The notes under the pieces: generated by a model
What the model saw: only the letters and a program-made list of their open reading frames with translations
Databases searched by the model: none
Told to the model about the DNA's origin: nothing
Translations under genes and position numbers: made by a program
Part shown: piece by piece, positions 25,653-44,160 of the stretch
How the letters are laid out: each line of letters starts with the position of its first letter
How positions within the stretch are numbered: the stretch's first letter is position 1
Origin: an uncultured delta proteobacterium
GTDB lineage: Bacteria > Desulfobacterota > RBG-13-43-22
NCBI GenBank assembly: GCA_963743305.1
Contig: CAVUPH010000027.1
Location: 1 to 64,000, forward strand
DNA length: 64,000 nucleotides
Direction: 5' to 3'

Positions 25653-26684
25653 TTATTTCGGTTCCTTCATTTTGTGCAGCTTCTCAATCAAAATAGGCAA
25701 TAATTTATGAACATCCCCCACCACCCCCAAGTCGGCCAATCGAAAAATGCGGGCCTGGGGATCGGTGTTGATCGCCAAAACCAATTTGGACTTTTCCATG
25801 CCCACGGTGAATTCGTTAGCCCCGGAAATGCCGCAGGCCACCAGTAACCGGGGGGAAACCGTCTTCCCGGTCTGGCCGATTTGCCGTTCAAATGTCAGGG
25901 TCTTTGAATCTATGACGGGGCGCGTGCCGCCCACCGTCCCCCCCAGGACCCCGGCCAGTTCATGGACGACGGAAAAAGAACCTTCCCGACCGACTCCCCG
26001 TCCTCCACAGACGATGAGATCCGCCTCCTCCAGGTCCAGGACTTCAGGAGGGGCTTCGAATCGTTCCAACAGCCGGGTGCCCTGCCTTTCCGACTGGTCC
26101 TGGAGAAAAATTTCCGTGATTTCCGGGTTGGCAGGAACGGGGATTTTTTCCGAGGTTAGCACCGAGGGCAGAAAGGTCAGGATATGGGGTGTCTGATCGG
26201 CAAAATAGACTCTTTCAAAAAGATGCCCGTTCGCCACCGCTCGAACGGCCCAAGCCTTTCCCCGGCCATCCACCTGGGCATCCAGGGCCCGGGTGATTAA
26301 ACCGGTTTCCAGAAGAGCGGCCAACCGGGGGGCCCAATCGCCCGTCTCCGCGGTTTGGGCCAGCAGGAAAAAAGAGGGTTGCCGCGTTCTGATCAAATCA
26401 GCCAATAACCAAGCGGTCCTTTCTCCTGGAACCTCAGGGCGATGATCCTCCCGACACCAAAGCACCCGCTGCACCCCGAAATGCCCTAACCCTTTCAGCT
26501 CCTCCTCGGCAACCGGGCCCAAGACTACGGCGGTCACCGTTGCTGTTTCTCCCCGGGAAGGAAGGAGCCGCCGGGCTTCACCGGCCAATCCCTTGGTTAG
26601 TTCTTCAACAGCGCCGGCCCTGGTATGTACCCAAATCCAGATATCCTCTGATTTGGAACGGATTTTCCCGAACTCCAAACTCAT
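25653..26684 (-). CDS. etfA: Electron transfer flavoprotein alpha subunit
   Basis: GGRGV, GGTRPVID, RQIGQTGKTVSP, GISGA, AINTD; ATGA overlap. Confidence 0.93.
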   Translation of the reverse strand: MSLEFGKIRSKSEDIWIWVHTRAGAVEELTKGLAGEARRLLPSRGETATVTAVVLGPVAEEELKGLGHFGVQRVLWCREDHRPEVPGERTAWLLADLIRTRQPSFFLLAQTAETGDWAPRLAALLETGLITRALDAQVDGRGKAWAVRAVANGHLFERVYFADQTPHILTFLPSVLTSEKIPVPANPEITEIFLQDQSERQGTRLLERFEAPPEVLDLEEADLIVCGGRGVGREGSFSVVHELAGVLGGTVGGTRPVIDSKTLTFERQIGQTGKTVSPRLLVACGISGANEFTVGMEKSKLVLAINTDPQARIFRLADLGVVGDVHKLLPILIEKLHKMKEPK

Positions 26685-28639
26685 AGGCGCCTTCCCACCC
26701 GATGACCTTCCAGGATGGCCGTATCGGTTTTCCGAGGAGCCAGACAATCGCCGATCCGGTACAGCTCCTGGACTTTTCCTTTAAGGGCAAAATAAAGCGC
26801 GTCGCAAGACCGGTTCCCGGCCACCAGGACAATCGTGTCCTGGTCTTCAAAATCGATCAATTGATTGGAATAGACGTTCAAGCCTTTGACCAATTTTCCT
26901 TGAATCTCCAGAACGGCTATGTCGGGAGTAAAGGTGACCCCCTTTTGGGCCAATCGCTTTCGGGTCAGATAGAGGTCTTGCAAAGGCCCCAGTTGGCTGC
27001 CGATAAACAAGGCCGGGGTGAGGATATGAACAACCCTGCCCCGGTCGGCCAGATATTCGGCCGTGCCCGTACCTTGATGATGCCCTTCCAAATCAATCAG
27101 CAGCACCCGGGGGCCGGCCACCACCAGCCCGGTCAGAACTTGGGGGGCAGTAACCACATCCGGAAAGGAGTAATCCCCCGGAAAGGGATGCTCTTTGGGA
27201 AGCGAGCCGCTGGCCACCACGACCGCATCCGGTTTTTCGGCTAAGACCAAGGCTTCCGTTGCCTCCATCCCCAACCTAAGATCAATATCCAGTTGGCTGA
27301 TCTGTCCGACCAGCCAGCGGGTTACTCCGGTGATTTCTTGTCTTCCGGCCGCCTGGCCGGCAATCAGATTCTGCCCCCCCACTTCCGGATTTTTTTCCAG
27401 GAGAATGACCTCGTGTTTTCTGAGGGCCGCTACGCGGGCGGCCTCCAGACCGGCCGGCCCGCCCCCAATCACCAGCACTTTTTTAGGTCTTTCAGCGGGC
27501 CGGAGGGTCCCCGCGCCCCAGACCTTCTCCCGGCCCACGGCCGGGTTTTGAACACACCCCAATAAATAACCCAACCCCATCCGGCCGATGCATCCCTGAT
27601 TGCAGGCAATGCATTGGCGAACATCTTCCACTCTTCCTTCCCGGGCTTTATTCGGCAATTCCGGATCGCAGATCAAGGCCCGGACCATCCCGATCATATC
27701 CGCTCGACCGTCGGCCAGAATTTTTTCAGCCAGATGAGGGTCATTAATGCGGTTGGTGCAAAAAACCGGCAGGGTAATGACCGAGCGGATGCCGGCGGCC
27801 AGAGGAACCGTGTAGGCCAGCGGGGTGTGCATGGAACCTTCCACCAGGAAGAGATGATGGAAGGTCCCCAGACTGAGGTCCATGAAATCCAGTTGATCCG
27901 TGGCCTCCAACTGCTGGGCGATGATTTTGGCGTCTTCCAAGGTCAAGCCGCCCCGCGGGTGCATTTCATCGGCATTTAATCGTACGCCCAGGGTGAAGTC
28001 GGGCCCTATGGCCTGACGAACGGATTGAATGACCTCCAGACAAAATCGCAGCCGATTCTCAGAAGTCCCGCCATAGTCATCCTGACGAAAGTTGGTGGCC
28101 GGCGATAAAAACTGTCGGATAAGGGAACTGTGGCCGATCTGAAGCTCTATCCCGTCGAACCCCCCTTCGACGGCATGGACCGCGCTTCGGGCAAAAAATT
28201 CCAGGCATTCCCGAATGTCCTCGATTTCCATTTCCTTGGCCGTCTCCCGGAAAAGGGGATCCTTACCGGCCGAGGGGCCCCAGACCGGTAACCGGGAATT
28301 CTTCCCATCCCCCTGCATTCCATTGTGGTTCAATTGGGCGAATATCTTGGTTTCGGTTTGGTGGATGGTCTTAGTCAGTTCCTGGAAACCGGGTATGACC
28401 TCCGGTTTATAGGCGTCTACGAGTTTGGCATAAGGATAATCGGTGGGGTGCACCGATAATTCTTCGGTGGTTATCAACCCACAACCCCCTTGGGCCCTCT
28501 CTCGATAATAATGGATATGCCGCTCGCTGATCCGGTTGTTTTCCCCGAAATTAGTCAAGTGGGCGGCAAAATGGATCCGGTTGGACACTACAATGCGGCC
28601 GATCTTCAAGGGGGCGAATAAATAGGGAAAGCCGCTCAT
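26681..28639 (-). CDS. Mycofactocin-system FadH/OYE-family flavoenzyme
   Basis: AAHLTNF, TEELSVHP, CIACNQGC, GGGPAGLEAA. Confidence 0.88.
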   Translation of the reverse strand: MSGFPYLFAPLKIGRIVVSNRIHFAAHLTNFGENNRISERHIHYYRERAQGGCGLITTEELSVHPTDYPYAKLVDAYKPEVIPGFQELTKTIHQTETKIFAQLNHNGMQGDGKNSRLPVWGPSAGKDPLFRETAKEMEIEDIRECLEFFARSAVHAVEGGFDGIELQIGHSSLIRQFLSPATNFRQDDYGGTSENRLRFCLEVIQSVRQAIGPDFTLGVRLNADEMHPRGGLTLEDAKIIAQQLEATDQLDFMDLSLGTFHHLFLVEGSMHTPLAYTVPLAAGIRSVITLPVFCTNRINDPHLAEKILADGRADMIGMVRALICDPELPNKAREGRVEDVRQCIACNQGCIGRMGLGYLLGCVQNPAVGREKVWGAGTLRPAERPKKVLVIGGGPAGLEAARVAALRKHEVILLEKNPEVGGQNLIAGQAAGRQEITGVTRWLVGQISQLDIDLRLGMEATEALVLAEKPDAVVVASGSLPKEHPFPGDYSFPDVVTAPQVLTGLVVAGPRVLLIDLEGHHQGTGTAEYLADRGRVVHILTPALFIGSQLGPLQDLYLTRKRLAQKGVTFTPDIAVLEIQGKLVKGLNVYSNQLIDFEDQDTIVLVAGNRSCDALYFALKGKVQELYRIGDCLAPRKTDTAILEGHRVGRRL

Positions 28640-30624
28640 AGCCCCTGTCCCACCTTCCGGCCTTCATAAATGGCGGTATCAATACCCCTCGGGCTTTGGC
28701 AATCTCCCACGCGATGGAGTTCCTTCACCCGACCTTTCAGCTCTCTATACAGCCAGTCGTTGGCGATATTCCCCATGTCCAGAACAACAGTCCCGTATCC
28801 TTCCCAGCCTTTAGGTTGGTTGGTATAAATATCCCGGCCCCTGACCGTAGTTCCTTGAATCTCATCGATGAGAACCTCGGTGGTAAAGGTGACCCCTTTT
28901 TGGAGCAAACGCTGTCGGGTCAGATAAAGATCCCCCAGCGGGGCCAGCTCGATGCCCACAAAAAGGTCGCTGGTGATCATATCCACTTGTTTCCCTTGAT
29001 CGGCCAGCAGTTCCACCGTGGCCGTAGCGTGATGCCCGCTGTTTTCATCAACAAAAAGGACCCGATCTCCGATAGGATACCGACCCTCCAGGACCTCCCA
29101 GACCGTGAGAACCTCCGGAGGACCGTATTGACCGGGGACCGGTTTAGCGTTCGGGAATGAACCGGTGGCCACAATCACGACATCGGGATTTTCTTCCAGG
29201 ACCCGTTCCGGGCTTATGGTCTGGTCGGTGAGCAGAGGCACGCCCAGGGCTTCCAACTGATGCTGGAGATACAAAATGACCCCGGCCATTCCCTGCCGAG
29301 TAGGTCTTTTTCGGATCAAATTGAGTTGGCCGCCCACGACTTTGTTTTTTTCATAGACCACTACCCGGTGGCCCCGGGAAGCGGCTGCCCGGGCGGCCTC
29401 CAATCCGGCCGGCCCGGCCCCGATGACCATGACCCGTCTGGCGATTTTAGAATGCGGCTGGGGGCTGGCAGCGTATTGGGTCGGATTATCGCCGAACGCC
29501 GAACGCTGAACGCCGAAGGCTTCGTAGCCCACTTCCGGATTCTGAATGCACCCCAGGGTCTTGGCCTGATTAATCCGTCCCAGACAGCCTTTGTTGTCCC
29601 GAACGCAATAACGAACTTTTTTCAGGTCTCCCGCGCGGATCTTTCTCGGGAAATCAGGGTCGCAAATCAATTGGCGAACATAGCCTACCAGATCGGCTTT
29701 CCCCAGAGCAACGGTCTCTTCGGCCATTTGCGGGGTATTGATTTGATAGCTGGCCATTATGGGAAGAGGAACGGCGGCTTTTATCTTTTCGGCCAATTCC
29801 ACGGTGTATCCGGGAGGAGTATGCATCGAAGCCAGGATCAGATGCAGGTTGTAATAGGTCCCCAAAGTCACATTGACAAAATCGATCCCGCCGGTTTGAC
29901 CGAGGTGACGGGCCATCTCCTGGGCCTCTTCCACGCCAATCCCGCCCCAGAATTTTTCATCGGCACATAACCGGATTCCCACCGTGAAATCGTTCCCCAC
30001 GACTTTCCGAATACCCTCCAGGACCTGGAGGGGCAGACGGAGACGGTTCTCCAGGCTGCCCCCGTATTCGTCTTGACGCTGGTTCGTCAGGGGAGAGAGA
30101 AACTGCCGCAACAGGGATTCCGGTCCCAGGTCTATCTCGATCCCGTCCAACCCGCCTGCCCGTACAAATCCGGCCGCCCGGGAAAAGGATTCCACCAGTT
30201 CCTCAAAATCCTCCGCCTCCATGGCTTTGGCCGTTTCCCCAAAGACGATATCCGCCAAGGCCGACGGCCCCCAGACGGGCATTCGGTTGATGGCCCCGCT
30301 GCTTTGAAACCCATGGTGGGTCAGTTGGGCAAATAGGGATGTGCCGGTTTCATGGATGACTTCGGTTAATTTCCGGTAATCAGGGACGATCGAGGGAACG
30401 GAGGCTTCGATCATGGTCTCCCAGGGGCGGTCATTGGCCTGGATGGCGAGTTCCCCCAGAATGATCAGCCCGCAGCCCCCGACAGCCCGCTGTTGGTAAT
30501 AGGCCCGATGGCGGTCATTGAAACGGCCGTCCCGGGAAAAATTGGTACGGTGCGCCAGAAAGCAAATACGGTTGGGCAAGGTGGACTGACCCAAAACCAG
30601 CGGTGTGAAGAGATGATCAAACAT
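28636..30624 (-). CDS. Mycofactocin-system FadH/OYE-family flavoenzyme, divergent paralog
   Basis: LAHRTNF, DEYGGSLENR, CVRDNKGC, GAGPAGLEAA; paralog of the adjacent gene. Confidence 0.85.
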   Translation of the reverse strand: MFDHLFTPLVLGQSTLPNRICFLAHRTNFSRDGRFNDRHRAYYQQRAVGGCGLIILGELAIQANDRPWETMIEASVPSIVPDYRKLTEVIHETGTSLFAQLTHHGFQSSGAINRMPVWGPSALADIVFGETAKAMEAEDFEELVESFSRAAGFVRAGGLDGIEIDLGPESLLRQFLSPLTNQRQDEYGGSLENRLRLPLQVLEGIRKVVGNDFTVGIRLCADEKFWGGIGVEEAQEMARHLGQTGGIDFVNVTLGTYYNLHLILASMHTPPGYTVELAEKIKAAVPLPIMASYQINTPQMAEETVALGKADLVGYVRQLICDPDFPRKIRAGDLKKVRYCVRDNKGCLGRINQAKTLGCIQNPEVGYEAFGVQRSAFGDNPTQYAASPQPHSKIARRVMVIGAGPAGLEAARAAASRGHRVVVYEKNKVVGGQLNLIRKRPTRQGMAGVILYLQHQLEALGVPLLTDQTISPERVLEENPDVVIVATGSFPNAKPVPGQYGPPEVLTVWEVLEGRYPIGDRVLFVDENSGHHATATVELLADQGKQVDMITSDLFVGIELAPLGDLYLTRQRLLQKGVTFTTEVLIDEIQGTTVRGRDIYTNQPKGWEGYGTVVLDMGNIANDWLYRELKGRVKELHRVGDCQSPRGIDTAIYEGRKVGQGL
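29490..29517. repeat. Four CGCCGAA-like heptamers inside the OYE gene
   Basis: cgccgaa cgccgaa cgctgaa cgccgaa. Confidence 0.75.
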
Positions 30625-30636
30625 GTGGGCGTGGTA

Positions 30637-31638
30637 TTAGGCCGCTGATCTTAAATTCACCAGGCATTCCGGGTCAGGCAAGGAAATATCGCGATAGGTA
30701 TGGTAGGCCATGGCCGGGCACCCGCCGCGGCAGGTCTCAAAGCGGCGGCAGGTATGGCAGGAGGAAATATCAAGAGTCCGGAACCGGCGAAAAATCGCCG
30801 CCTGATCCCAAATCTCTTTAAATGAGTGACGGCGCACATTGCCGGCCTGAAAGTCCTTTTCCTGCAAGAAGGCGCAGGGATAGACCTCCCCGCTGGGAGA
30901 CAGGCAACAGGTCATCTTGGCGGCGCCGCACATGTCCAATCCCTTGCGACGCCGATTCTCCGAGGTGAGGCAGAAGAAAGAATCCCCGGTACGTACTTGA
31001 TCGTGGCCATTCAGCCATTCCGCAAAGGCTTCCAACTGGTCCGGACTGGGATTGAGGAGTGTTTTGCTGTCTTTACCCCTCCCCGAGGGACGGAAACGCG
31101 ACACCCGAAACCCCGCTCGGTATTCCCCGGCCAATTCCCGCAAGGAGTCCAATTGGGAATAATTCAGCCTGGTCAGGACCGTATTGATACTATAGGAAAT
31201 ATTCTGCCTGGAGAGGCAGTCCAAGGCGGACAGGATCTTTCGATACGTCCCTTGACCGCGGATCCGGTCATTCACCTCCTCGGTGACGCCGTCCAGGCTG
31301 ACCTGGAGATAGAGCTGTTTAAAGGCCTTTAAGCGTCGGGCTAGTTCGTCATCCATGAGCAACCCGTTGGTACTCACACAGGCCACTATTCCCTTTTCCT
31401 GTAACCCAGTCAAAAGTTCCAGAAAATCTTTTCGAAGAAAGGGTTCCCCGCCGCCGATATTAACCTGAAAGACCTTCAGACCGGCCCATTGCCGGATCAG
31501 GTCTTGACACTCTCCGAAGGAAAGCTCCTCCGGTGAGGCCTCCCCGGCAGCGGAGAGGCAATGAGCACAGCGGAGATTGCATCGCCAGGTAATTTCCCAG
31601 GTCACGTTGACCGGGGCGCGAAGACCGGTGCGAGCCAT
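30637..31638 (-). CDS. mftC: Mycofactocin radical SAM/SPASM maturase
   Basis: APVNVTWEITWRCNLRCAHC, VFQVNIGGGEP, SRFRPSGRG, SPASM CGA...CxxC..C.GGC, PDPECL. Confidence 0.93.
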   Translation of the reverse strand: MARTGLRAPVNVTWEITWRCNLRCAHCLSAAGEASPEELSFGECQDLIRQWAGLKVFQVNIGGGEPFLRKDFLELLTGLQEKGIVACVSTNGLLMDDELARRLKAFKQLYLQVSLDGVTEEVNDRIRGQGTYRKILSALDCLSRQNISYSINTVLTRLNYSQLDSLRELAGEYRAGFRVSRFRPSGRGKDSKTLLNPSPDQLEAFAEWLNGHDQVRTGDSFFCLTSENRRRKGLDMCGAAKMTCCLSPSGEVYPCAFLQEKDFQAGNVRRHSFKEIWDQAAIFRRFRTLDISSCHTCRRFETCRGGCPAMAYHTYRDISLPDPECLVNLRSAA

Positions 31639-31639
31639 T

Positions 31640-31918
31640 TCAGCAGGCAAGAATGATCCCCTTCCCCTGCAAAGTGTTCAGTGTCTTTTTCAACGCCGAG
31701 TACCGATCCTCGGACCAGGGACCGGAAAGGGGCCCCCGCTGCCGCCATTCTTCCAGGGTGTGACGTCCTTGGAAAAAATCCGCCTTCAGGAAATCACCGG
31801 AGGAAACAAAATAAAGCCCCGGACCTTGCTGGGTATAGAAGAGCAATCCAAAGTCTTCCTCCCGTACCTGGCACCCTGGAGCCAGGGTATACCGGGGTCC
31901 TTGATCTATTGAGGTCAT
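31640..31918 (-). CDS. mftB: Mycofactocin RiPP-recognition chaperone
   Basis: YTLAPGCQVREEDFGLLFY...LQGKGII, PqqD-like, directly upstream of mftC. Confidence 0.88.
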   Translation of the reverse strand: MTSIDQGPRYTLAPGCQVREEDFGLLFYTQQGPGLYFVSSGDFLKADFFQGRHTLEEWRQRGPLSGPWSEDRYSALKKTLNTLQGKGIILAC

Positions 31919-31926
31919 AGTCCTTT

Positions 31927-31968
31927 TTAATATATCCCGCGGGTCCCGTCAATACGGATCTCTTCCAT
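31927..31968 (-). other. 13-codon MftA-like mini-ORF (MEEIRIDGTRGIY), remnant or variant precursor
   Basis: GGAG 7 nt before ATG; 7 of 12 residues match EELAIDGICGVY; occupies the canonical mftA position. Confidence 0.65.
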
Positions 31969-32004
31969 TTTGTTTCTCCGGCATAGTTACCGATCTCCGT
32001 TGCA

Positions 32005-33168
32005 CTAACAATTCCGGGAGCCATTGATCTCGCTCATGGCTTCCAGCGCCCAATCGATTTCATCTCCGGTATTAAAAGGTCCGAGGCTGAAACGGACGCC
32101 GCCCCGGGGAAAGGTGCCTATAGCCTCGTGAACCAAGGGAGCACAATGGAGCCCGGCCCTTACGGCGATGCCGAAGTCGGCATCCAGGATCGCCCCGGTG
32201 TCCCCCGGATCCATTCCCCGCACATTGAGGGTGATGAGCCCCACATGGTTGCGCAGATCTTCCGCACAATAAAGTTCGACCCTGTCCAGGGAAGACAGGC
32301 CGTCACGGAAGCGGGTGACCAGTTCCATCTCCCTGCGGTGTATGGCTTCGATACCCTGTTCCTCCAGGAAGTCTAGGCCCGCGGAAAGACCGAGGATACC
32401 GATCAGGTTAAGGGTCCCGGCCTCCAGACGATGGGGATAGGTCTGGGTGTGGATGGGACTCTCCGAATCAATGCCGGTTCCCCCAAAGCGTGTGGTCCGC
32501 AGGTCCAGGTCCGGGTGAATAATCAGGCCGCCGATGCCTGTGGGCCCCAGTAAAGACTTATGGCCGGTGAAGGCTACGGCGCCGATTTTCCAGGCCTCCA
32601 GATCAATGGGGACCACGCCGGCGCTCTGGGTGGCATCCACCAGCAAGGGCACCTCTTTCCGGGCACAGAGGGCACCGATTTCGGCTAGAGGCTGGATCGT
32701 TCCCAGCACGTTGGAGGCATGGCAGACGATCACCAGCCGGGTATTGGGCCTGATGGCCTGGGCGATATCGTCAGGGTCAACAAAGCCCTTTCCATCGAAG
32801 GGCACCAGATCGTATTCGATCAGGCCCTGTTCGTGAAGGTGGTACAGGGGCCGAAGGACCGAGTTGTGTTCAATCCGAGTGGAGACCACGTGATCCCCCG
32901 GCCGAATCAAGCCCTGAATGGCCAGATTCAGGGCGTCCGTGGCGTTCCCCGCGAATATGACCCGATGGGGATCGGGTGCGCCGAAGAAGCGAGCGAGCTT
33001 TCTCCTCGCGGCCTCGACCAGATCCTCCGCCTCAATCGCCAGGTCATAGCTCCCCCGCCCGGGAGAGACCCCGGTCCGCTGGTACGCTTCGACCATGCTG
33101 GCCAGCACACCCGGTGGTTTGGGGAAGGTGGTGGCTGCGTTGTCCAGGTAGATAAACCGTTTGGTCAT
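32005..33168 (-). CDS. Cysteine desulfurase-family class V aminotransferase
   Basis: YLDNAATT, EHNSV, TGHK, RAGLHCAP. Confidence 0.9.
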   Translation of the reverse strand: MTKRFIYLDNAATTFPKPPGVLASMVEAYQRTGVSPGRGSYDLAIEAEDLVEAARRKLARFFGAPDPHRVIFAGNATDALNLAIQGLIRPGDHVVSTRIEHNSVLRPLYHLHEQGLIEYDLVPFDGKGFVDPDDIAQAIRPNTRLVIVCHASNVLGTIQPLAEIGALCARKEVPLLVDATQSAGVVPIDLEAWKIGAVAFTGHKSLLGPTGIGGLIIHPDLDLRTTRFGGTGIDSESPIHTQTYPHRLEAGTLNLIGILGLSAGLDFLEEQGIEAIHRREMELVTRFRDGLSSLDRVELYCAEDLRNHVGLITLNVRGMDPGDTGAILDADFGIAVRAGLHCAPLVHEAIGTFPRGGVRFSLGPFNTGDEIDWALEAMSEINGSRNC

Positions 33169-33173
33169 ACTCC

Positions 33174-33539
33174 CTACCCCGAACAGGTCTTCGGATTCGG
33201 CAAGCCGGCCACACGGCGGGCGCCCCGACGGATACCCTCCGGGAAGAGGGCCTCCATCTGCATGAAGGTCAAGCCGATCTCGGCTTTTATGTCACGGTTC
33301 ATGGGCGCCCGGCCGTTGTGGAAGTAGAAATTCCTCAAAAAATGGATGATCCGCCATTGGGTCTCGTTCATTTCTTCAAGCCCGGTTTCCGCGGCGAGGA
33401 TTCCGGCCAGCTCAACGGTCCAGTCTTCCGGTTTCCACAGGAATCCCTCGTTGTCAAAGAGGATCTCCCTCCCCGCGATCAAGCGAACCTTCCGGTTGGG
33501 CTGGCCGGAAAGGGGCTTGGACCCTGCAGATCCGTCCAT
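33174..33539 (-). CDS. TusE/DsrC-family sulfur relay protein
   Basis: DNEGFL..PEDW, LFP, AGLPNPKTC; one C-terminal Cys. Confidence 0.85.
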   Translation of the reverse strand: MDGSAGSKPLSGQPNRKVRLIAGREILFDNEGFLWKPEDWTVELAGILAAETGLEEMNETQWRIIHFLRNFYFHNGRAPMNRDIKAEIGLTFMQMEALFPEGIRRGARRVAGLPNPKTCSG

Positions 33540-33548
33540 GGGCCTCCG

Positions 33549-36204
33549 TTATCCTTTAGCCAGCGCGGCCTTGATCTTCTCCGGCGTTGCCGGCAGGTTG
33601 CAGATCCTGACGCCGCAGGCATCCTTGATGGCGTTGATGACCGCCGGGGCCGTTGAAACCATGGTCATCTCACCGATACCGGTGGCTCCCAGGGTTCCTT
33701 TGGTTCGAGGCGTCTTCGAGGGGTGTAATCACCTCCATGTCAAAGGCGGTCTTCATGGTGGGAAATTTAAAGGTGACCCAGTCTTTGGTTTTGCCGCTTA
33801 CATATTCCTCCCTGAGGGCGTATCCCACGCCTTGATCCATTCCACCCTCAAGCTGGCCTTCCAGGTTCTGAGGATGGATCACCGGTCCCGGATCAACCGC
33901 TGTGGTCATTTTGATCACCCGGACATCACCGGTCTCGGTGTTGACCTCTACCTCCGCCATCTGAATATTATGGACTTGGGACTCAAAGGTCGGCCCCTGA
34001 CCGGTTTGCGGATCGAGCTGACCTTCAGGGACATTCTTCTTCCCCATGTAGCGGGTGGGTTTTCCAGCTTTTTTCAGCCCTTCATAGGTCGCCTCACCGG
34101 CCGTGGCCAGGTTTTCTTTCAACTGTTCCAGGGCATTGACCAGGGCCCCTCCGACCATATAGGTGATCCGGCTGCCGGCAGCAGGACCGGTTTCAGTAGT
34201 CTGATCGGTATTGCGGGTCACCAAACGGACCTTCTCCAACGGAAGATTCAGTAAATGAGCGGTGATCTGGGTCAGCATGGAATCGTTTCCTTCACCAGGA
34301 TCGGCCGCGGCGGCGTAGAGGGTAACCCCATTATCCGGATCAAGTTCCACCGCCAACTGGGCCGCGTCTCCTGGTGAGGCGATGCCGAAGGAATGGGCGC
34401 CCAGGCCGACGCCCCGTTTGATCGGGCCATCCTTGAAAGCAGCCGCCTCTTTCCTGGCCCGCTCGTAATGGGGCCGGATGAGTTCGCAGAGCTCCTTGAA
34501 AGTCCACTGCTCCGCGACGGTACCGGTGGACACGCTCTGACCGGGCAGAAGAGCGTTTCTTAAACGGAATTCCAGGGGATCGATTCCCAATTTTTCCGCC
34601 AGCATGTCCATGGCCGATTCCAGGGCAAAATTGACCTGCGGCGGCCCGGCCCCGCGGGCGGCGCCTCCCGCCGGGTTATTGGTGTAAACCAGCTTGGCCA
34701 TAGTGTCAATATGGGGGATATGATAGGAGCCGGAGAGCATTTGCAGGGCACGAACAATGACGACGATGCCCAAAATCATGTAGGCGCCGTTCTCCACGAC
34801 GAAATCATTGGCGTAGGCGGTCAACTTCCCGTCCCGATCAGCCGCCAGTTTGACCTTCATGATAAAGGGATGCCGTTTGGAAGTCAGCAGCATGGATTCA
34901 TGCAGGCTGGGGATATAGCGAACAGGTCTCTTGAAATGGAGGGCCGCGGCCCCGGTAATGCCTTCGGAGGTAATGGCGGCCTTGATCCCGAACTGCCCCC
35001 CGGTGTAGGCCTCTTCATAGCGCATGTTTTCCCATCCCAGGGCACCTTGCAGCATGGCCATATGGGTGTGGATCATGATGCTTCGTCCGATCACCACGAG
35101 CAAGGCCTCCTCTCCTTCTCCTTCCAGATAGGCGACACAGGCCTCCGGCTCCAGGGGAGCCTGATGATTGAGCTGCGTGGAAAACTCCGCCTCCACCACG
35201 GCGGCGGATCCCGCAAAGGCCGTTTTAGCATCTCCCTTAATCTGGGGTTGTTGATAGCAGAGGTTGGGGAATTCGGCATGCAGCGGTACGGCGTTTTCTG
35301 CCAGGGCCTCCTGCGGAGTCATCATCACCGGCAGGGGCTCGTACGCTACTTTTACGGCGGCCGCCGCTGCCCGGGCCTGGTCCAAGGTCTCGGCCGCCAC
35401 TACGGCAATGGGATCCCCCAGGCAGCGGACCTTCTCATCGCAGAGCACGGGCTGGTCATTGAAGATGAATTGGATTCGGTTGGTCCCCTTGATGTCTTTG
35501 GCGGTCATGGTGCCGATGACGCCGGGCATCTTTTCCGCCTCTCCGGTATCGATGGAAATGATTTTCGCGTGATGCTCCGTGCTGCGGACGACCGCTATCT
35601 CCGCGGCGCCCTGAATTTTTATATCGGCCGAGAATTCGGCCAGCCCGCAGGCCTTGATCATGGCCGAGGGTCGCGGATGGGAGACATGCAGCTTCGGTCC
35701 CTTGGGGTCCGGCCTGACCTGGTCGGGCGAGGTCTCGCCGCGAATGAACCGGCCGGCCAGCTTCACGGCGTCCAGGATCTTCGCATAGCCGGTGCAACGG
35801 CACAAATTCCGGGCCAAGGCCTTTTTGATCTCTTCCGAATCCGGGTCCGGATTCCGGTCCAGAAGGACCTTGGCCGCCATAATCATACCCGGTGTACAGA
35901 ATCCGCATTGTATGGCGCCTGAAAGAACAAAGGCCTCTTGGATCAGATGGGGATTATCCGGAGTACCCAAGCCCTCCACGGTAATCACCTCGGCGCCTTC
36001 CAGGTCAGCCACCTTGGTGAGACAGGATCGCGTCGCTTTATTGTTGACGATGACCGTACAGGCCCCGCATTGCCCCAGGCGGTCGCAGGACTGCTTCGCC
36101 CCGGTAAGGTGCAGGTCGTCACGCAGGAGATCCATAAGGACCCTGTCCGGTTCGACCACAAACTGATACCTTCGTCCGTTTACTTTTAATGAGATTTTTT
36201 TCAT
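33549..36204 (-). CDS. Molybdopterin aldehyde oxidoreductase (xanthine oxidase family, fused 2x[2Fe-2S]), frameshift near 33715
   Basis: CDRLGQCGAC, QCGFC, CRCTGY, GGQFG. The C-terminus GATGIGEM...PATPEKIKAALAKG* is in another frame, ending at 33549. Confidence 0.9.
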
Positions 36205-36283: not shown

Positions 36284-37423
36284 TTACCATTCACAGACCC
36301 AGCGACCGATGATTTGCCTTTTTCGCATCGCTTCGGCCACCTCGTTAATCTCTTCCACCTTAAACTTTTTAGTTAATAATTTTTCCACGTTATACTCCCC
36401 TCGCATAATCATGTCGGCGAAGGCGGGGATGTCCTCATGGGTCCGGATATTGCCGTATAGAGTCCCTTGCAGGGTTTTGCAGTGGACGGGGAAAAAAGTC
36501 AGGACCATCTCGGCCGATTGATCCGCCGGATGAATGCCGATCTGAACCCACTTGCCCCCCATGGCCAAGGCCCAGTAGGCCTGGCTAATGGCGCCGGTAT
36601 TCCCGCTGACCTCGAAGAGGATGTCCACCCCGCCGCCCATGATCATCCCGTTATCCATCTTTACCCCGCCGGTTTGTAATTGGATGATCGGGACCGGATC
36701 TTCCCGGCTGCTGTTAATAAAATGGGTCACCCCGAAGGCTTTGGCTATTTCCTCTTTACTGCCTTCCAGGTCCACCCCGAAAATGGGATAAGCACCCCGG
36801 AGCTTGGCGCCCTGAACCACATTAAGCCCGACACCGCCCAACCCCCAGACGGCCACGGATTGTCCCGGTTTCACCTGGGCCACATTATAGGCGGCCCCAA
36901 ATCCGGTGGGCATGCAACAGGCCAGCGAACAGGCCTGCTCCAACGGCAGGTCGTCTCTGATTTTAATGGCCCCGGCCTCCACCAGGACCATGTATTCGGC
37001 GAAACCGGAAACAAAATTATTGTGCAATAATTGGTTTCCCTGGGCATCCTTCAACCGGGAGGTTCCATCCAGGAGCGTGCCTTGCGTATGGATGCCATGA
37101 CTTGTCCGGCAGATATGTCCCTGACCGCTGGTGCACTCCGGGCAGTGCCCGCAGGCCACCATCCAGGTGGCGACCACGTGATCCCCTTTTTGGAGTGAAG
37201 TGACCCCCGGTCCGACGGCCTCGACAATACCGGCGGCCTCGTGCCCGACCACCATAGGCAGCGGGAAGGGGACGTCGCCTTCCATGAAAGACAGGTCCGA
37301 ATGGCAGAAACCGGTATAAGCGGTTTTGACCAAGACCTCCTGTTCCTTGGGCGGGGCCAATTCAACTTCTTCAATAGTCAATGGTTTTTTATACTCTCTT
37401 AGCACTGCCGCTTTCATTTTCAT
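36284..37423 (-). CDS. Zn-dependent alcohol dehydrogenase (MDR), paralog B
   Basis: CHSD, GHE, CGHCPEC..C, GLGGVG. Confidence 0.92.
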   Translation of the reverse strand: MKMKAAVLREYKKPLTIEEVELAPPKEQEVLVKTAYTGFCHSDLSFMEGDVPFPLPMVVGHEAAGIVEAVGPGVTSLQKGDHVVATWMVACGHCPECTSGQGHICRTSHGIHTQGTLLDGTSRLKDAQGNQLLHNNFVSGFAEYMVLVEAGAIKIRDDLPLEQACSLACCMPTGFGAAYNVAQVKPGQSVAVWGLGGVGLNVVQGAKLRGAYPIFGVDLEGSKEEIAKAFGVTHFINSSREDPVPIIQLQTGGVKMDNGMIMGGGVDILFEVSGNTGAISQAYWALAMGGKWVQIGIHPADQSAEMVLTFFPVHCKTLQGTLYGNIRTHEDIPAFADMIMRGEYNVEKLLTKKFKVEEINEVAEAMRKRQIIGRWVCEW

Positions 37424-37469
37424 GTCTTGCCCTCCCTTTCCTAGCTTCAGGTTAACGTGCTTTTTTTTT

Positions 37470-37507
37470 CGCTTCGTCCTTTTGGGTAGGTACCCCCCCG
37501 ATCCGGT
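37470..37507. repeat. Solo degenerate end of the 19-bp inverted-repeat element
   Basis: cgcTTCGTCCTTTTGGGTAGGTacccccccgatccggt, 2 mismatches to the core. Confidence 0.75.
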
Positions 37508-37531
37508 CTGATCGGCTGATCTTGGGGGTTC

Positions 37532-38350
37532 TTAGACCCCCCATTTAACGCCGGCATTGGTCAGCGTTGCTCCCGAGACATCAACCACCGCCGAGCCGCC
37601 GTCAATGAGCAGAACGGACCCGGTCATGAATCTCGAATCCTCGCTGGCCAGGTAACTGCAGATACCCGTGATCTCTTCGGGCGCTGCGAAGCGGCGAAGG
37701 GGTACGCCCGAGGAGACCACCTGGAAGACGCCCTCCACATCGGTACCCAGCGTTTCTTGGAGTTGGCCGAGTGAATGCTCCAACATGGCCGTCCTTGTGC
37801 CGCCGGGGCAAACGACATTGCAGCGGACGTTGGCAGGACCGTAGTCCAGGGCCACTTGCTGGGTGAGCATGATCAGGCCGCCTTTTGACGAGGCATAGGC
37901 CGGCATGGTGGGAAGGCAACGGACTCCGCCCAGGGAGGAAATGTTGATGATCGATCCTCCGCCTTGTTTAATCATGTGCGGTATGGAGGCCTTCATCAGG
38001 AGAAAGGGGCCGGTCAGGTTCGTCTCGATCACCTGCCGCCATAGGTCGGGATCGAGGTCGACCACGGAGCCCCCGGGATCTATGCCGGCGTTGTTTACCA
38101 AAACGTCGATTTTACCGTCAAACGTGAGTGTCGCCTCCACCATTCTTTTGACGTCTTCAAAGTCGGTGACATCCCCCGAACAGGTCACCACAGTGCCCGC
38201 AGGGAGCGTTTGGGCGACCACGTCCAGCATTTTCTGCCGCCGGCCGGTGATGCAGATCCGCGCTCCGTCGGCCACAAACCGCGCCGCAATGGCCGCGCCT
38301 ATTCCCTGCCCCCCTCCGGTAATGAGGGCTACTTTACCATTCAGATTCAT
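37532..38350 (-). CDS. SDR-family oxidoreductase
   Basis: TGGGQGIG, NNAG, YASSK; RBS GGAGG before ATG 38350. Confidence 0.92.
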   Translation of the reverse strand: MNLNGKVALITGGGQGIGAAIAARFVADGARICITGRRQKMLDVVAQTLPAGTVVTCSGDVTDFEDVKRMVEATLTFDGKIDVLVNNAGIDPGGSVVDLDPDLWRQVIETNLTGPFLLMKASIPHMIKQGGGSIINISSLGGVRCLPTMPAYASSKGGLIMLTQQVALDYGPANVRCNVVCPGGTRTAMLEHSLGQLQETLGTDVEGVFQVVSSGVPLRRFAAPEEITGICSYLASEDSRFMTGSVLLIDGGSAVVDVSGATLTNAGVKWGV

Positions 38351-38508
38351 TTTGACCTCCTCAACGCTTGCTGGTCCGGACCTTTTTTTGTCCGGAATGG
38401 TTTGGACTTCCTCAGACCGGTTATCCATGCAGATCAGCCTCGGTCTCCTCCCGGCTTGCCGATCCCCTGAATTCGAAGGTGGTCTTCCCGGCGGGAAAGG
38501 CCTGTTGC

Positions 38509-39135
38509 CTAGTTCAGGGAATCGATCATGAATTGGGCGGCGAGTCTCGCGCCGATACCCGGCGGCAGACCGCACTTTTCGAACCCCTTCTCCTTGGAAA
38601 AGGTCATCATGGCCTCTTCGCTCTCCCCCGGATTAAGCCTGTGCCCGAGGATGACCGTTTCCATAATGTCTGAGCAATACAGATGCCCTATTTCACCCTC
38701 GAAGCGAGCCATGAATTTCTGAGCCATCAGGATCGTGTTATTCAGGGCGCCATAATCCAACCGGTCATTGCTTCCGAAGAAGAGCCCGAAAGCCATCAGG
38801 CTGCCCGTGATCCCCCCGCATATTTCACCGGTGCCGCCAATCCCGGGGAAAGGGGTGAGGGCCTGGATGATTTCCATGGAACCCAGTCCAAATTCCTCGA
38901 GCAACGCCAGGGCCGTACCCTGAGCGCAGTTTTTAAGGATAAAGTTATATTCCTCCGCCCGCAACTGGACGCGGTCCAGGATCTCTTCCTTTCTCGCCAG
39001 CATCTCCGCCGGGTCGAGCTTCCGGGAGGAAATCCCTTCAGCCGACAGTTCTCTGACCCGCGCCTCAATAGCCGCGGCCTCCCAGACCCTCCCGGCCAGT
39101 TCGTCGACCTTCTTCTTTAGCCGCTCTTCATTCAC
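38509..39135 (-). CDS. C-GCAxxG-C-C family putative redox protein
   Basis: NCAQG...GEICGG...LYC...EKC pattern. Confidence 0.8.
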   Translation of the reverse strand: MNEERLKKKVDELAGRVWEAAAIEARVRELSAEGISSRKLDPAEMLARKEEILDRVQLRAEEYNFILKNCAQGTALALLEEFGLGSMEIIQALTPFPGIGGTGEICGGITGSLMAFGLFFGSNDRLDYGALNNTILMAQKFMARFEGEIGHLYCSDIMETVILGHRLNPGESEEAMMTFSKEKGFEKCGLPPGIGARLAAQFMIDSLN

Positions 39136-39241
39136 CGTTCAAATCCCCCTTTCCGCCCTTCGATTCTTGTTTCACCCACCTCGGTCTTTGACCGCATTTC
39201 AATCCGAGGCTCGAAGGGGCTTGTTGTCCTTCCCCTCGGTA

Positions 39242-39946
39242 TCACAACCCCAGATAGGCCTTGCGTATGTGATCATTATTCATAAGATCGACGGCCTTTC
39301 CCTCCAGGGTGAGCCGGCCATTCTCCAACACGCAAGCGCGATCGGCCAACTCCAAGGCCTGCTTGACGTTCTGCTCCACCAGCAGGACGGTGATCCCTTG
39401 CTGGGGCAAGGATTTGATGATTCGGAATATCTCGGCCACCAATATCGGTGCCAGACCGTAAGACGGCTCGTCGAACATGCAGAGCTTGGGCTTGGACATC
39501 AAACCCCGGCCGATGGCCACCATTTGCTTTTCACCGCCGCTCAGGGTCCGGGCTATCTGACCACTCCGTTCCTTAAGCCTGGGGAATATCTCGTAGACCT
39601 CTTGGAGCGTCTCTTTCTTCCGGTCCCAGGCCCGGGACAGGTAGGCGCCCATTTCAAGGTTTTCGCGGACGGTCATATCCGGAAAAAGTCTTCCTTCCTG
39701 AGGGACCTGGGAAATGCCCTGTCCTACGATCATCTGGGGCGGCTGCCCTTCTAATCGCCGGCCCAGGAATTCAACGCTTCCCGCTGCTCCGGGAACGACC
39801 CCGGATAGGGTGTTCAGGAGCGTCGTCTTGCCGGCCGCATTGGCCCCAACAAGGGCCACGATCTCCCCTTGGTGGACCTCGAAGCTGACCTCCCACAAGG
39901 CCTGAATCTTTCCGTAAAAAGTGCTCAGATTTCTGACTGAAAGCAT
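39242..39946 (-). CDS. HAAT ABC transporter ATP-binding protein (LivF-like)
   Basis: GANAAGKTT, LSGGEKQ, LLVEQN. Confidence 0.92.
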   Translation of the reverse strand: MLSVRNLSTFYGKIQALWEVSFEVHQGEIVALVGANAAGKTTLLNTLSGVVPGAAGSVEFLGRRLEGQPPQMIVGQGISQVPQEGRLFPDMTVRENLEMGAYLSRAWDRKKETLQEVYEIFPRLKERSGQIARTLSGGEKQMVAIGRGLMSKPKLCMFDEPSYGLAPILVAEIFRIIKSLPQQGITVLLVEQNVKQALELADRACVLENGRLTLEGKAVDLMNNDHIRKAYLGL

Positions 39947-39950
39947 CGTT

Positions 39951-40670
39951 TCATTTTCCCAGATAGACTTCAATGACGGTCTCGTTGTTGACTATCTCCG
40001 CCGGTGTTCCCTCGGCGACCTTTACTCCATAGTGCAACATGATGATCCGGTCACAAATGCTCATGATGGCCTTCATCACATGTTCGATCATCATAATGGT
40101 AATTCCAATGTCTCGAATCCTGGTGATCAAGGCCATCGCCTCGGACGTCTCCGTCGGATTCAAACCGGCGATCACTTCATCCAACAGCAACAGTTCCGGT
40201 TTAGTCGCCAAGGCCCTGGCCACCTCGAGTCTCTTCTGCTGAGCCATGGTTAGATCCTTCGCCAGGATCGTCCAGGGAACGGACAACCCGGTGAACTCCA
40301 AAAGTTCCAGCGCCTCTTTGGTCGCCTGGGCCGAGGACATGCCGCCGGGAGCGCCAAAGTGCGCGGCCAGGGTAACGTTTTCAAGAACGGACAGGTTGGG
40401 GAAGACCCTCACCGCCTGAAAAGTCCTGGCCACTCCGGACCGGCAGACCTGGTAGGATTGAAGACCGCTGATCTTGGCCCCCTTGAATCGGATCTCTCCG
40501 GAATCCACCCGGATGGCTGCCGAGATGAGATTGAACAGCGTAGTCTTGCCGGCCCCATTGGGGCCGATGAGCCCTACGATTTCACCCCGGTCGACGTGAA
40601 AGTCGACATTGGTAATCGCGGCTAACCCGCCAAAATGCTTATTGACTCCTAAACCCTCAAGAATTTGCAT
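39951..40670 (-). CDS. HAAT ABC transporter ATP-binding protein (LivG-like)
   Basis: GPNGAGKTT, ARTFQ, LLDE, IEH. Confidence 0.92.
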   Translation of the reverse strand: MQILEGLGVNKHFGGLAAITNVDFHVDRGEIVGLIGPNGAGKTTLFNLISAAIRVDSGEIRFKGAKISGLQSYQVCRSGVARTFQAVRVFPNLSVLENVTLAAHFGAPGGMSSAQATKEALELLEFTGLSVPWTILAKDLTMAQQKRLEVARALATKPELLLLDEVIAGLNPTETSEAMALITRIRDIGITIMMIEHVMKAIMSICDRIIMLHYGVKVAEGTPAEIVNNETVIEVYLGK

Positions 40671-41608
40671 GTCGCCTGGCTGCGCCTCCCTTCGTCCACT
40701 TCTGTAACCATCCTACCAACCCGCCGGGAAGATACAATATAGCGATGACCAGGATGGAACCGAATATGAGCATATAATGGTAGGGGAACTGAGTGATCAG
40801 TAATTCCTCCAAATAAGCAAAGACGGTCGCACCCAGTATGGGACCGTAGAACGTTCCCATGCCGCCGAAAATGGCCATCAACACCGGCATGAACGAAAAG
40901 AGAGGATTGAAGGCGATGTAGGGGTCGATGTAGGTCCACTTGGTTGCCATGATGGCGCCGGTGGCGCCCATAAAGAAGGCGCTGACCCCGAACATAATGG
41001 TCTTGAGAGCGGTGACGTTAACGCCGGCATGGGCCGCGGCCTCGTCGTCTTCCCCAATGCTCTTTAAGGCCAACCCGTACTTCGATTCTCGAATAAGGTA
41101 AGCGGTGAGAAGCAATACCGCGAGGATAGCCAGCATGACATAGAAGATGGTCGCATTATTGATGACGATCACGAATCGGCCCCGGGTGTGCGTCAGTCTG
41201 ACTTCGTACCAGAGGATAAGCTGCTGGATAAGCACGACGAGGCCGAAGGTAAATATGGAGAAATAGATGCCTTTCAAGCGCAGCGTCAGGGCGCCGACCA
41301 CCAGAGCGAGGCCAAGACTGGTGAGAGCGCCGGCCCCGATAACCAGGGGCAGAGGGAGTACCTTACCCAGTACGGCCGAGGTGTAGATGCCAATGCCCAG
41401 AAAGGCGGCCGGCGCGAGAGAGATGTTGCCCGTGGGTCCGGAAAACATGACCCAACTGACCGTCAAAATGATGTACATGACGACGGACGTCATGAGAATC
41501 ATCGTGTATTCGTCCCCATAAAGGGGTAGAACGGGCGAGTAGCATGAAGATCAGGATGGCCAATCCCCATGAAAACAGCCTTTTTGCAGGAAGCGCAGTC
41601 GGATTCAT
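40657..41608 (-). CDS. HAAT ABC permease (LivM-like), frameshift near 41520
   Basis: LRLKGIYF, FGGMGT; N-terminus MNPTALPAKR... is in another frame from ATG 41608. Confidence 0.8.
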
Positions 41609-41613
41609 TTTCT

Positions 41614-42488: not shown

Positions 42489-42566
42489 GAGGATAGCTTC
42501 CTAATGGTCGGTTAATTATGATACAGGCTGCCCGGAGGCGGCCCGCCGGACAGCCTGCTCACCCTT

Positions 42567-43809: not shown

Positions 43810-43990
43810 CTTCCCTCCCTCGATTGCTTCTTTTGAAAGATTTTCCCATGATTCCTGGTCCAAAGGCAAGACGCCTCCTCCCCATAACTACCTATCCTTG
43901 AGAATGCCGGTACACCCCCCCTTCCGTTAAATTGGTTTATATTCCTTGGTCTAAGGATGCTCCCCGCCAACATCCCGGGATAAAATGGTG

Positions 43991-44120
43991 TTCGCCCTTT
44001 TGGGTGGGTACCCCCCAGATCTGGTAAGGTGGAAAACCTTTCGCCGAGACCCAGTGGCCACGGAGGCCTAAATTCTGTCTAAGCTACCACATATTGTGGC
44101 CACCCACCCAAAAGGGCGAA
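43991..44120. mobile_element. 130-bp element with perfect 19-bp terminal inverted repeats (MITE/REPIN-like)
   Basis: TTCGCCCTTTTGGGTGGGT (43991-44009) ... ACCCACCCAAAAGGGCGAA (44102-44120). Confidence 0.75.
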
Positions 44121-44144
44121 GCGTCGATAAAATAAAGGTATTTT

Positions 44145-44160
44145 AGCAAAATCAATGCCA
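44145..44160 (-). promoter_or_regulatory. sigma54 -24/-12 promoter
   Basis: Minus strand TGGCATTGATTTTGCT; just downstream of a sigma54 activator gene and upstream of the ABC operon. Confidence 0.75.

What the first reader, a model, noticed from the sequence alone, without database searches (positions are those of the whole stretch)
31927..31979. Cryptic 13-aa MftA-like peptide ending Gly-Ile-Tyr directly before mftB
Seen: GGAG-7nt-ATG GAA GAG ATC CGT ATT GAC GGG ACC CGC GGG ATA TAT TAA = MEEIRIDGTRGIY, ending 8 nt before the mftB start. It aligns with EELAIDGICGVY at 7 of 12 positions; Cys is lost and Val becomes Ile, and an in-frame TAA upstream removes the leader. Inference: either the decayed original mftA, left after an insertion while a second copy took over, or a minimal alternative precursor giving an Ile-derived +14 Da homolog, or a translational coupler for mftB.
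Basis: partly seen in the sequence, partly recalled or inferred. Interest (0 to 1): 0.8.

Follow-up and report, generated by a model that had tools for sequence, protein, structure and literature searches.

The report
Decayed leftover of a duplicated mftA
The 13-codon reading frame in front of mftB is the worn-down tail of a second copy of the mycofactocin precursor gene, so it is an ordinary gene relic rather than a new mini-precursor.

Summary
On the minus strand, GGAG, 7 nt, then ATG (31968) to TAA (31927) encodes MEEIRIDGTRGIY and ends 8 nt before the mftB start.

It is homologous to the last 15 codons of mftA, not a chance match. With a matrix built from relatives' MftA C-termini it ranks 2nd of 6,377,111 six-frame 15-mers in the genome, after the true mftA at 46514-46392. 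Its stop lies where mftA stops in the nearest relatives.

A full mftA precedes mftB in 51 of 60 genome loci and 55 of 77 metagenome loci. None has a truncated or Cys-less copy.

Two related genomes (G011, G013) carry two intact mftA copies, as direct repeats of the mftA-mftB junction around a 12-kb block of client genes. In G011 this lies on one contig; in G013 the copies are on two. In this window the mftB-proximal copy lost its leader, next to a molybdo-oxidoreductase/DsrC/cysteine-desulfurase cassette. It then took about 6 further substitutions, all amino-acid-changing, including the invariant Cys to Arg.

The best reading is a relic that no longer serves as a precursor (0.85). It may still be translated as a short coupling frame for mftB (about 0.3, untested). 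A working Ile-type mini-precursor is unlikely (about 0.04). Full-length MftAs ending in GIY exist in four relatives.

The parts
31927..31968 (-). 13-codon ORF plus TAA (MEEIRIDGTRGIY)
31927..31974 (-). 48 nt (15 codons plus stop) homologous to the 3' end of mftA: the relic proper
   Evidence: Matrix rank 2 in window and genome. Identity is 31/48 nt to the window's full mftA, 32/48 to the G011 copies and up to 36/48 to L119. No detectable homology further upstream (P 0.29-0.97).
31976..31979 (-). GGAG, 7 nt before the ATG (possible ribosome-binding site)
   Evidence: sequence only, function not tested.
31987..31989 (-). In-frame TAA that closes the frame upstream
31919..31926 (-). 8-nt spacer AAAGGACT between the relic's stop and the mftB ATG. 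AAGGA lies only 2 nt from the ATG.
   Evidence: The same 8-nt spacing is seen in L012, L110, L124 and L125.
31640..31918 (-). mftB (92 aa)
   Evidence: TIGR03967, 42 bits, cut-off 33
30637..31650 (-). mftC radical SAM/SPASM maturase (337 aa)
   Evidence: TIGR03962, 357.9 bits, cut-off 265. It is the only copy over the cut-off in the genome.
26681..30624 (-). Two FadH/OYE-type oxidoreductases (TIGR03997-like)
   Evidence: 746.5 and 875.5 bits, cut-off 793
46392..46514 (-). Full-length mftA (40 aa, ...EELAIDGICGVY), the working copy
   Evidence: TIGR03969, 32 bits, cut-off 25
46270..46391 (-). 122 nt after the full mftA; possibly a decayed 5' piece of mftB (weak)
   Evidence: Left-anchored alignment to the window's own mftB 5' end scores 1.0 against shuffles of -9.6 +/- 3.9, P=0.009. 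An earlier local test was not significant (P=0.64). Against G011 mftB it was not significant (P=0.69).
32005..36204 (-). Cassette of molybdopterin aldehyde oxidoreductase-like, DsrC/TusE-like and cysteine desulfurase-family genes. It lies between ADH-a and the relic, where G011 and G013 have the intact 5' part of mftA.
36284..46269 (-). Rest of the block between the two mftA copies: ADH-a, SDR, C_GCAxxG_C_C protein, liv-type ABC transporter genes (partly broken) and a sigma-54 activator
46620..46945 (-). CMD-family gene directly upstream of the full mftA, as in L011/L051, L110 and L124
19799..21289 (-). mftF glycosyltransferase
   Evidence: TIGR03965, 364 bits, cut-off 280

Best explanation
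The ORF is a relic: the last 15 codons and the stop of a second, mftB-proximal copy of mftA. In this lineage the mftA-mftB junction existed as a direct repeat on either side of a roughly 12-14 kb block of mycofactocin-client genes. Relatives G011 and G013 still have both copies intact (on one contig in G011, on two contigs in G013). Here the copy next to mftB lost its leader and start, where a molybdo-oxidoreductase/DsrC/cysteine-desulfurase cassette now abuts it. Being redundant with the full mftA 14.4 kb upstream, it then took on amino-acid-changing substitutions, including the invariant Cys to Arg. It no longer serves as a mycofactocin precursor. Shown: the homology, the synteny, the two-copy state in relatives and the pattern of substitutions. 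Inferred: the order of events, and that the peptide is not processed. Its stop still lies 8 nt before the mftB start, so if it is translated it could pass ribosomes on to mftB. That is a possible present use, not a shown one.
For: (1) Homology and position: matrix rank 2 of 6,377,111 in the genome. The stop lies 8 nt before mftB, as in L012, L110, L124 and L125, and 277 nt before the mftC start, as in L110 and L124.
(2) Relatives carry a full mftA at this place: 7 of 8 related-genome loci, 51 of 60 genome-contig loci and 55 of 77 metagenome loci. Every one of these ends in DG[IV]CG[VI]Y, although the search expressions allowed other residues at the Cys position. In the 16 loci scanned for a relic (14 of them with mftB but no adjacent mftA), no relic-like hit lies next to mftB.
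(3) Two-copy state: G011:C36 reads ADH-a, mftA1, 12-kb block, mftA2, mftB, mftC. Both copies are 42 aa and their last 70 nt are identical. The 59 nt after mftA1 are a decayed mftB 5' end (score 35 against shuffles of -8.7 +/- 3.6). G013 has the same two units on two contigs.
(4) Decay: against the codons seen in 102 distinct functional mftA 3' ends, the relic needs at least 6 nt changes, all amino-acid-changing (positions -15, -10, -9 twice, -5 and -4). It averages 30.9/48 identity to them, against 36.8/48 for the window's full copy.
(5) Family tests fail: no TIGR03969 match at E<=10, while the full copy scores 32 bits. Two of the 7 residues invariant among the last 8 are changed, and the conserved 23-aa region is absent (passages of PMC3023750).
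(6) A full canonical mftA is present in the same cluster.
Against: The frame has a good GGAG at 7 nt, an ATG and an intact stop. It also keeps E-E, I-D-G and G-I-Y. In a simulation that let the window's full copy decay neutrally to the same nucleotide distance, 20% of runs kept an open frame with its stop. Of those, 52% had a start codon, 7.7% kept G[VI]Y and 8% scored at least 16.5 bits. By that model the relic is better kept than expected. The model is pessimistic, because functional copies already differ from each other by about 11 of 48 nt. The relic was also noticed because it is well kept. Ile at -2 occurs in four full-length MftAs of relatives, so Val to Ile alone does not disable it. 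No expression data could be obtained. No closer relative with the same junction was found, so conservation of the relic itself could not be tested.
Confidence: 0.85

Rival explanations
1. A relic put to new use as a coupling frame. The short ORF is translated from its own GGAG/ATG, and ribosomes that stop 8 nt before the mftB ATG restart there. This would keep the mftA-to-mftB translational coupling that the nearest relatives appear to have. It adds to the relic reading rather than excluding it.
For: GGAG lies 7 nt before the ATG. The stop is kept 8 nt before mftB. mftB's own AAGGA lies only 2 nt from its ATG. In the nearest relatives mftB starts 3-9 nt after the mftA stop (L011 3, L032 5, L012/L110/L124/L125 8, L041 9). 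L110, L124 and L032 show no Shine-Dalgarno-like run in that spacer. No terminator or promoter match lies between the cysteine desulfurase gene and the ORF.
Against: Coupling is not general in the family. Only 20 of the 82 junctions where mftB could be placed have a gap of 15 nt or less. Loci with mftB but no adjacent mftA exist (L034, L040 and 10 metagenome loci). No RNA structure hides the mftB start (z = +0.81). There are no translation data. A start codon in such a relic is expected by chance about half the time.
Confidence: 0.3
2. A working minimal precursor. The leaderless 13-mer is taken by MftB/MftC, and its Ile-Tyr end gives an ethyl-methyl (+14 Da) homologue of the mycofactocin core.
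For: It keeps Gly-Ile-Tyr-stop and I-D-G. Ile at -2 is used by full-length MftAs in G007, G011:C208, G013:C3 and G377. A ribosome-binding site and a start codon are present.
Against: The conserved 23-aa region and the leader are absent (passages of PMC3023750; MftA lengths of 30-80 aa in a passage of PMC5264612). Cys at -4 is Arg, whereas all 102 distinct functional 3' ends have Cys. Position -5 is Thr, against Ile or Val in the rest. There is no TIGR03969 match. The variant is not seen in any other locus or in a metagenome pattern scan (0 hits). All relic-specific changes alter the amino acid. A full mftA is present.
Confidence: 0.04
3. A chance resemblance in an intergenic spacer.
For: Only 7 of 12 residues match, and at the nucleotide level the match is modest (31/48).
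Against: It ranks 2 of 6.4 million genome 15-mers at the one syntenic position, followed by a stop with the relatives' spacing.
Confidence: 0.005

Closest known systems
MftA, mycofactocin precursor (TIGR03969)
   Same: It is homologous to the last 15 codons. It lies directly before mftB. It ends in Gly-x-Tyr-stop and keeps I-D-G.
   Different: It is 13 aa, against the 35-48 aa and more seen in relatives. It has no leader and no conserved 23-aa region. Cys is replaced by Arg, Ile by Thr and Val by Ile. The family model does not find it.
Duplicated mftA-mftB junction in G011:C36 and G013 (C62 and C198)
   Same: The layout is the same: mftA, a 12-14 kb block of client dehydrogenase, transporter and regulator genes, a second mftA, then mftB and mftC. 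The modules are shared: ADH-a 91%, ADH-b 93%, AOR 90% and LivK 89% amino-acid identity to G011.
   Different: There both mftA copies are intact, and the redundant part that decayed is the mftB 5' piece after the distal copy. Here the proximal mftA decayed. The order of the two modules is swapped. MftB, MftC and OYE1 are only 58-73% identical to G011.
Short upstream ORFs that couple translation in bacterial operons (general knowledge, recalled)
   Same: It has its own Shine-Dalgarno sequence and start. Its stop lies a few nt before the next start.
   Different: It derives from a gene remnant, and neither translation nor coupling has been shown.

Membership tests
MftA (TIGR03969) | Match to the family model over its cut-off (25 bits) | tested here: not met
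   a search of the own genome at E<=10 lists the full copy (32 bits) and an unrelated 11.5-bit hit, but not the relic. The peptide is too short (under 20 aa) for search_protein_families.
MftA (TIGR03969) | Seven invariant residues among the last eight (I-D-G-x-C-G-V-Y) | tested here: not met
   Five of 7 are kept; Cys is Arg and Val is Ile (motif from passages of PMC3023750 and PMC5264612).
MftA (TIGR03969) | C-terminal Val-Tyr core | tested here: inconclusive
   The relic ends in Ile-Tyr. Val-Tyr is called essential in a passage of PMC10288494. However, four full-length MftAs of relatives end in Ile-Tyr.
MftA (TIGR03969) | Conserved roughly 23-aa C-terminal region behind a leader; length 30-80 aa | tested here: not met
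   It is 13 aa, closed by an in-frame TAA. There is no homology upstream of the 48 nt.
MftA (TIGR03969) | Encoded next to mftB and mftC | tested here: met
   It lies 8 nt before mftB.
MftA (TIGR03969) | Bound by MftB and modified by MftC | not testable with these tools
   Complex prediction asks for chains of 30 residues or more, so it was not used.
Gene relic (truncated paralogue) | Homology to a parent gene at the parent's syntenic place | tested here: met
Gene relic (truncated paralogue) | Essential parts lost, changes mostly amino-acid-changing, intact paralogue present | tested here: met
   (at least 6 relic-specific changes, all amino-acid-changing).
Coupling upstream ORF | Own ribosome-binding site and start; stop within a few nt of the next start | tested here: met
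   (sequence only).
Coupling upstream ORF | It is translated, and downstream expression depends on that translation | not testable with these tools
   No RNA or ribosome data. The RNA run X12 laid nothing.

The most novel reading that the evidence does not exclude
The 13-mer is made and is still recognised by MftB/MftC without a leader and without the Cys. It would then be either a second substrate that yields an Ile-derived (+14 Da) mycofactocin core, or a small decoy that tunes the maturase.
Probability: 0.04. Interest if true: 0.7.

Novelty: new member of a known kind. Interest (0 to 1): 0.25.

Why it matters
Taken alone this is an ordinary pseudogene fragment, and it warns genome miners against calling short look-alike frames 'minimal precursors'. 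The surroundings are of more use.

- In this group of Thermodesulfobacteriota, the mftA-mftB junction occurs as a direct repeat around blocks of mycofactocin-client genes. The redundant half of each repeat decays.
- The relic gives a natural view of which MftA positions drift once selection stops.
- Full-length GIY-type MftAs in relatives are the better place to look for an Ile-derived mycofactocin.

Tried and rejected
Conservation of the relic itself could not be tested.
- A degenerate pattern for the exact peptide found 0 stretches in metagenome contigs.
- The closest MftC relatives are 80% identical (L032, genome contigs) and 73% identical (metagenome contigs). None shares the junction.
- Three same-genus genomes have no mftC and no colinear block.

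Sequencing runs.
- X2 holds the junction with 0 differences and may be the source sample.
- X1 covers only parts of the stretch, outside the relic (31524-31749 and 32338-32400).
- X3 gave short pieces of other organisms.
- The RNA run X12 laid nothing, so there is no statement on expression.

Homology beyond the 48 nt was not found.
- Upstream against eight relatives' leaders and the window's own: P 0.29-0.97.
- I saw a possible 1-nt deletion that would carry the homology about 10 nt further. I did not pursue it because it is too short to test.

The region after the full mftA against the mftB 5' end gave mixed results.
- A local test was not significant (P 0.64).
- A left-anchored test gave P 0.009 against the window's own mftB.
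- The same test against G011 was not significant (P 0.69 and 0.75).
- I keep this as weak evidence only.

Other negative checks.
- RNA structure around the ORF: z = +0.81.
- Promoter and terminator scan: nothing between the cysteine desulfurase gene and the ORF.
- Rfam at E<=1 over 30000-47500: 0 matches.
- Candidate odd peptides in MftA-less loci (L111, L146, L150) turned out to be parts of larger proteins.

Counting notes.
- One search examined 77 of the 80 metagenome loci. L180, L181 and L183 were left out because the MftC match starts at the first bases of the locus.
- One search examined L032-L091, which are 60 of the 73 loci. The other 13 have MftC identity of 35% or less.

Tools and papers.
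- Complex prediction was not used, because the peptide has 13 residues and the tool asks for 30 or more.
- The two primary biochemical papers (PMC5331333, PMC5546040) are not held. Whether MftA truncations or Cys variants have been assayed is therefore unknown to me.
- Searches found no such report. I read only passages, and supplements were closed.

Full report
**Observation.** All genes of interest lie on the minus strand. Searches show GGAG (31979-31976), then AAACAAA, then ATG (31968). Thirteen sense codons follow, giving MEEIRIDGTRGIY, and then TAA (31929-31927). After that come 8 nt (AAAGGACT) and the ATG of a 92-aa gene. An in-frame TAA at 31989-31987 closes the frame upstream.

The 92-aa protein matches MftB (TIGR03967, 42 bits, cut-off 33). 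The next gene matches MftC (TIGR03962, 357.9 bits, cut-off 265). Two TIGR03997-type OYE oxidoreductases follow.

A six-frame search of the window for peptides ending G-[VIAL]-Y-stop finds only two. One is this ORF. The other is a 40-aa MftA at 46514-46392 (...EELAIDGICGVY), which scores 32 bits on TIGR03969.

**Not chance.** I built a position matrix from 43 distinct C-terminal 15-mers of MftA, taken from 113 related loci.
- The relic (NKMEEIRIDGTRGIY) scores 16.5 bits and the true copy scores 58.2.
- The relic ranks 2nd of 81,777 stop-free 15-mers in the window. The next best scores 1.0; the mean is -38.8 and the sd 7.0.
- It ranks 2nd of 6,377,111 in the whole 4.9-Mb genome. The next best scores 12.3 and is not followed by a stop.
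- Its stop lies 8 nt before mftB, exactly as in L012, L110, L124 and L125. It lies 277 nt before the mftC start, as in L110 and L124.
- Homology is detectable for 48 nt only. Nothing significant lies upstream.

**What relatives have at this place.**
- Among 61 related genomes, 8 have mftC. None of the three same-genus genomes does.
- Of the 8 non-own loci over the cut-off, 7 show a full mftA directly before mftB. The eighth is cut by a contig end.
- In genome contigs, 51 of 60 loci have a full mftA. Fifty of these are adjacent to mftB, and in L035 it lies 1381 nt away behind an insertion.
- Of the other 9 genome-contig loci, 5 lack upstream sequence and 1 is masked. Three (L034, L040, L063) have room but no mftA.
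- In metagenome contigs, 55 of 77 loci have a full mftA. Eleven have room but none, and 11 are too short.
- All of these full copies end in DG[IV]CG[VI]Y, although the search expressions would have let other residues through at the Cys position.
- In the 16 loci scanned with the matrix (14 of them with mftB but no adjacent mftA), no relic-like hit lies next to mftB.
- The closest MftC (80%, L032, a MAG titled Syntrophobacter sp.) sits in a plain ADH-mftA-mftB-mftC-OYE-OYE cluster.

**How it arose.** A pattern scan of 401 genomes of the phylum showed two mftA-type matches 12 kb apart on one contig of G011. G011 belongs to the same family as the window's genome.

That contig reads in this order:
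- C_GCAxxG_C_C protein, then ADH-a, then mftA1;
- histidine kinase, sigma-54 regulator, livGFHMK, ADH-b and AOR;
- mftA2, then mftB, mftC, OYE and OYE.

Both copies are 42 aa, and their last 70 nt are identical. The 59 nt after the mftA1 stop are a decayed copy of the mftB 5' end (47 of 59 nt; the ATG has become ATA; score 35 against shuffles of -8.7 +/- 3.6). G013 has the same two units on two contigs.

So in these relatives a direct repeat of the mftA-mftB junction brackets a block of client genes. The redundant mftB piece has decayed there.

The window has the same modules. Identity to G011 is 91% for ADH-a, 93% for ADH-b, 90% for AOR and 89% for LivK. The order is swapped, however:
- [kinase ... 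AOR], then ADH-c, CMD and the full mftA;
- [sigma-54 activator, liv', GCAxxG, SDR, ADH-a, Mo-oxidoreductase, DsrC-like, cysteine desulfurase];
- the relic, then mftB and mftC.

In G011 and G013 an intact mftA follows ADH-a directly. Here a 4.2-kb Mo-oxidoreductase/DsrC/cysteine desulfurase cassette stands in that place and abuts the last 48 nt of mftA.

MftB, MftC and OYE1 are only 58-73% identical to G011, although OYE2 is 87% identical. The mftB-mftC core therefore has a separate history, by recombination or replacement, and the relic lies at its left edge. The order of these events is inferred, not shown.

The 122 nt after the window's full mftA may hold the reciprocal mftB relic, but the evidence is weak (P=0.009 in one of four tests; not significant).

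**Decay or constraint?**
- Against the window's full copy the relic differs at 17 of 48 nt.
- A neutral simulation at that distance kept an open frame with its stop in 20% of runs. Of those, 52% had a start codon, 7.7% kept G[VI]Y and 8% reached 16.5 bits.
- That would hint at constraint. But functional copies themselves differ by about 11 of 48 nt. The mean identity of the full copy to 102 distinct functional 3' ends is 36.8/48, against 30.9/48 for the relic.
- Codon by codon, the relic needs at least 6 changes from codons seen in functional genes. All 6 alter the amino acid: N at -15, I at -10, R at -9 (two changes), T at -5 and R at -4.
- Cys at -4 is invariant in all 102.

This is the pattern of relaxed selection after the loss of function, not of a maintained precursor. 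With so few changes, an open frame is no surprise.

**Function now.** The published model is as follows (passages of PMC7491314, PMC5264612, PMC10114670 and PMC3023750). MftB binds MftA. MftC decarboxylates the C-terminal Tyr and links it to the penultimate Val. Sequence similarity among MftAs covers the last 23 residues, with 7 of the last 8 invariant.

The relic lacks the leader and most of that region. It has lost two invariant residues and is not found by TIGR03969. A full mftA is at hand. I therefore hold that it is not a precursor (0.85).

Its anatomy does fit a short frame that could feed ribosomes to mftB.
- GGAG lies 7 nt before the ATG, and the stop lies 8 nt before mftB.
- mftB's own AAGGA lies only 2 nt from its start.
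- The nearest relatives have mftA-mftB gaps of 3-9 nt, and three of them have no Shine-Dalgarno run in the gap.
- Against this, only 20 of the 82 junctions where mftB could be placed are that tight.
- No hairpin hides the mftB start.
- There are no translation data.

I give coupling about 0.3 as an added role.

**What I could not do.** There is no RNA cover and no closer relative. No co-folding was done, because the peptide is too short for the tool.

**Verdict.** The more interesting by-products are the junction repeats around client-gene modules and the full-length GIY-type MftAs in relatives.

Noticed in passing
L013 (G007), L015 (G013:C3), L018 (G011:C208), L194 (G377:C211): Full-length MftA genes ending ...VDGICGIY (Ile instead of the 'invariant' Val). 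The first three stand with an MftC over the TIGR03962 cut-off (367-374 bits). L194 was not scored against TIGR03962; it stands with an MftC-like ORF seen only in the ORF list. These clusters, not the relic, are candidates for an Ile-derived (+14 Da) mycofactocin core. One search for mycofactocin + MftA + isoleucine found no report of this.
   Followed up: partly
L191 (G011:C36:3000-21750); L192 and L193 (G013): Two intact mftA copies form a direct repeat of the mftA-mftB junction around a 12-kb block (kinase, sigma-54 regulator, liv transporter, ADH, AOR). A decayed 59-nt mftB 5' piece follows the distal copy.
   Followed up: yes
window 43991-44120: A roughly 130-nt element with 19-nt terminal inverted repeats (MITE-like). 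Many copies at 76-97% identity occur in the three same-genus genomes, often as a longer form. No Rfam match.
   Followed up: partly
window 44145-44160 (-): TGGCAT-N5-TTGCT, a sigma-54 -24/-12-like site. It lies just downstream of the sigma-54 activator gene (46269-44296) and upstream of the liv-like genes. It was read, and the consensus is recalled. mftB and mftC may lie in this long same-strand gene run.
   Followed up: no
window 41363-43869 (-): The liv-type binding protein is split into two frames (43869-43423 and 43400-42567). One permease frame matches its Pfam model only in parts. These are either broken genes or assembly indels.
   Followed up: no
whole genome G000: No MftD match was found (best 31.6 bits against a cut-off of 470.85). 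There is only a sub-threshold MftE-like creatininase on contig C2 (111.6 bits against 172). MftF is present at 19829-21244. The genome is 90% complete, so absence is not proven.
   Followed up: partly
window 26681-31918 compared with L191: Mosaic identity to G011. MftB is 58%, MftC 70% and OYE1 73% identical, but OYE2 is 87% and the client genes are 89-93% identical. The nearest MftC (80%) is in another family's genome, G353/L032. This suggests the mftB-mftC core was replaced.
   Followed up: partly
L035: mftB appears truncated at its 5' end, and mftA lies 1381 nt upstream behind inserted DNA.
   Followed up: no
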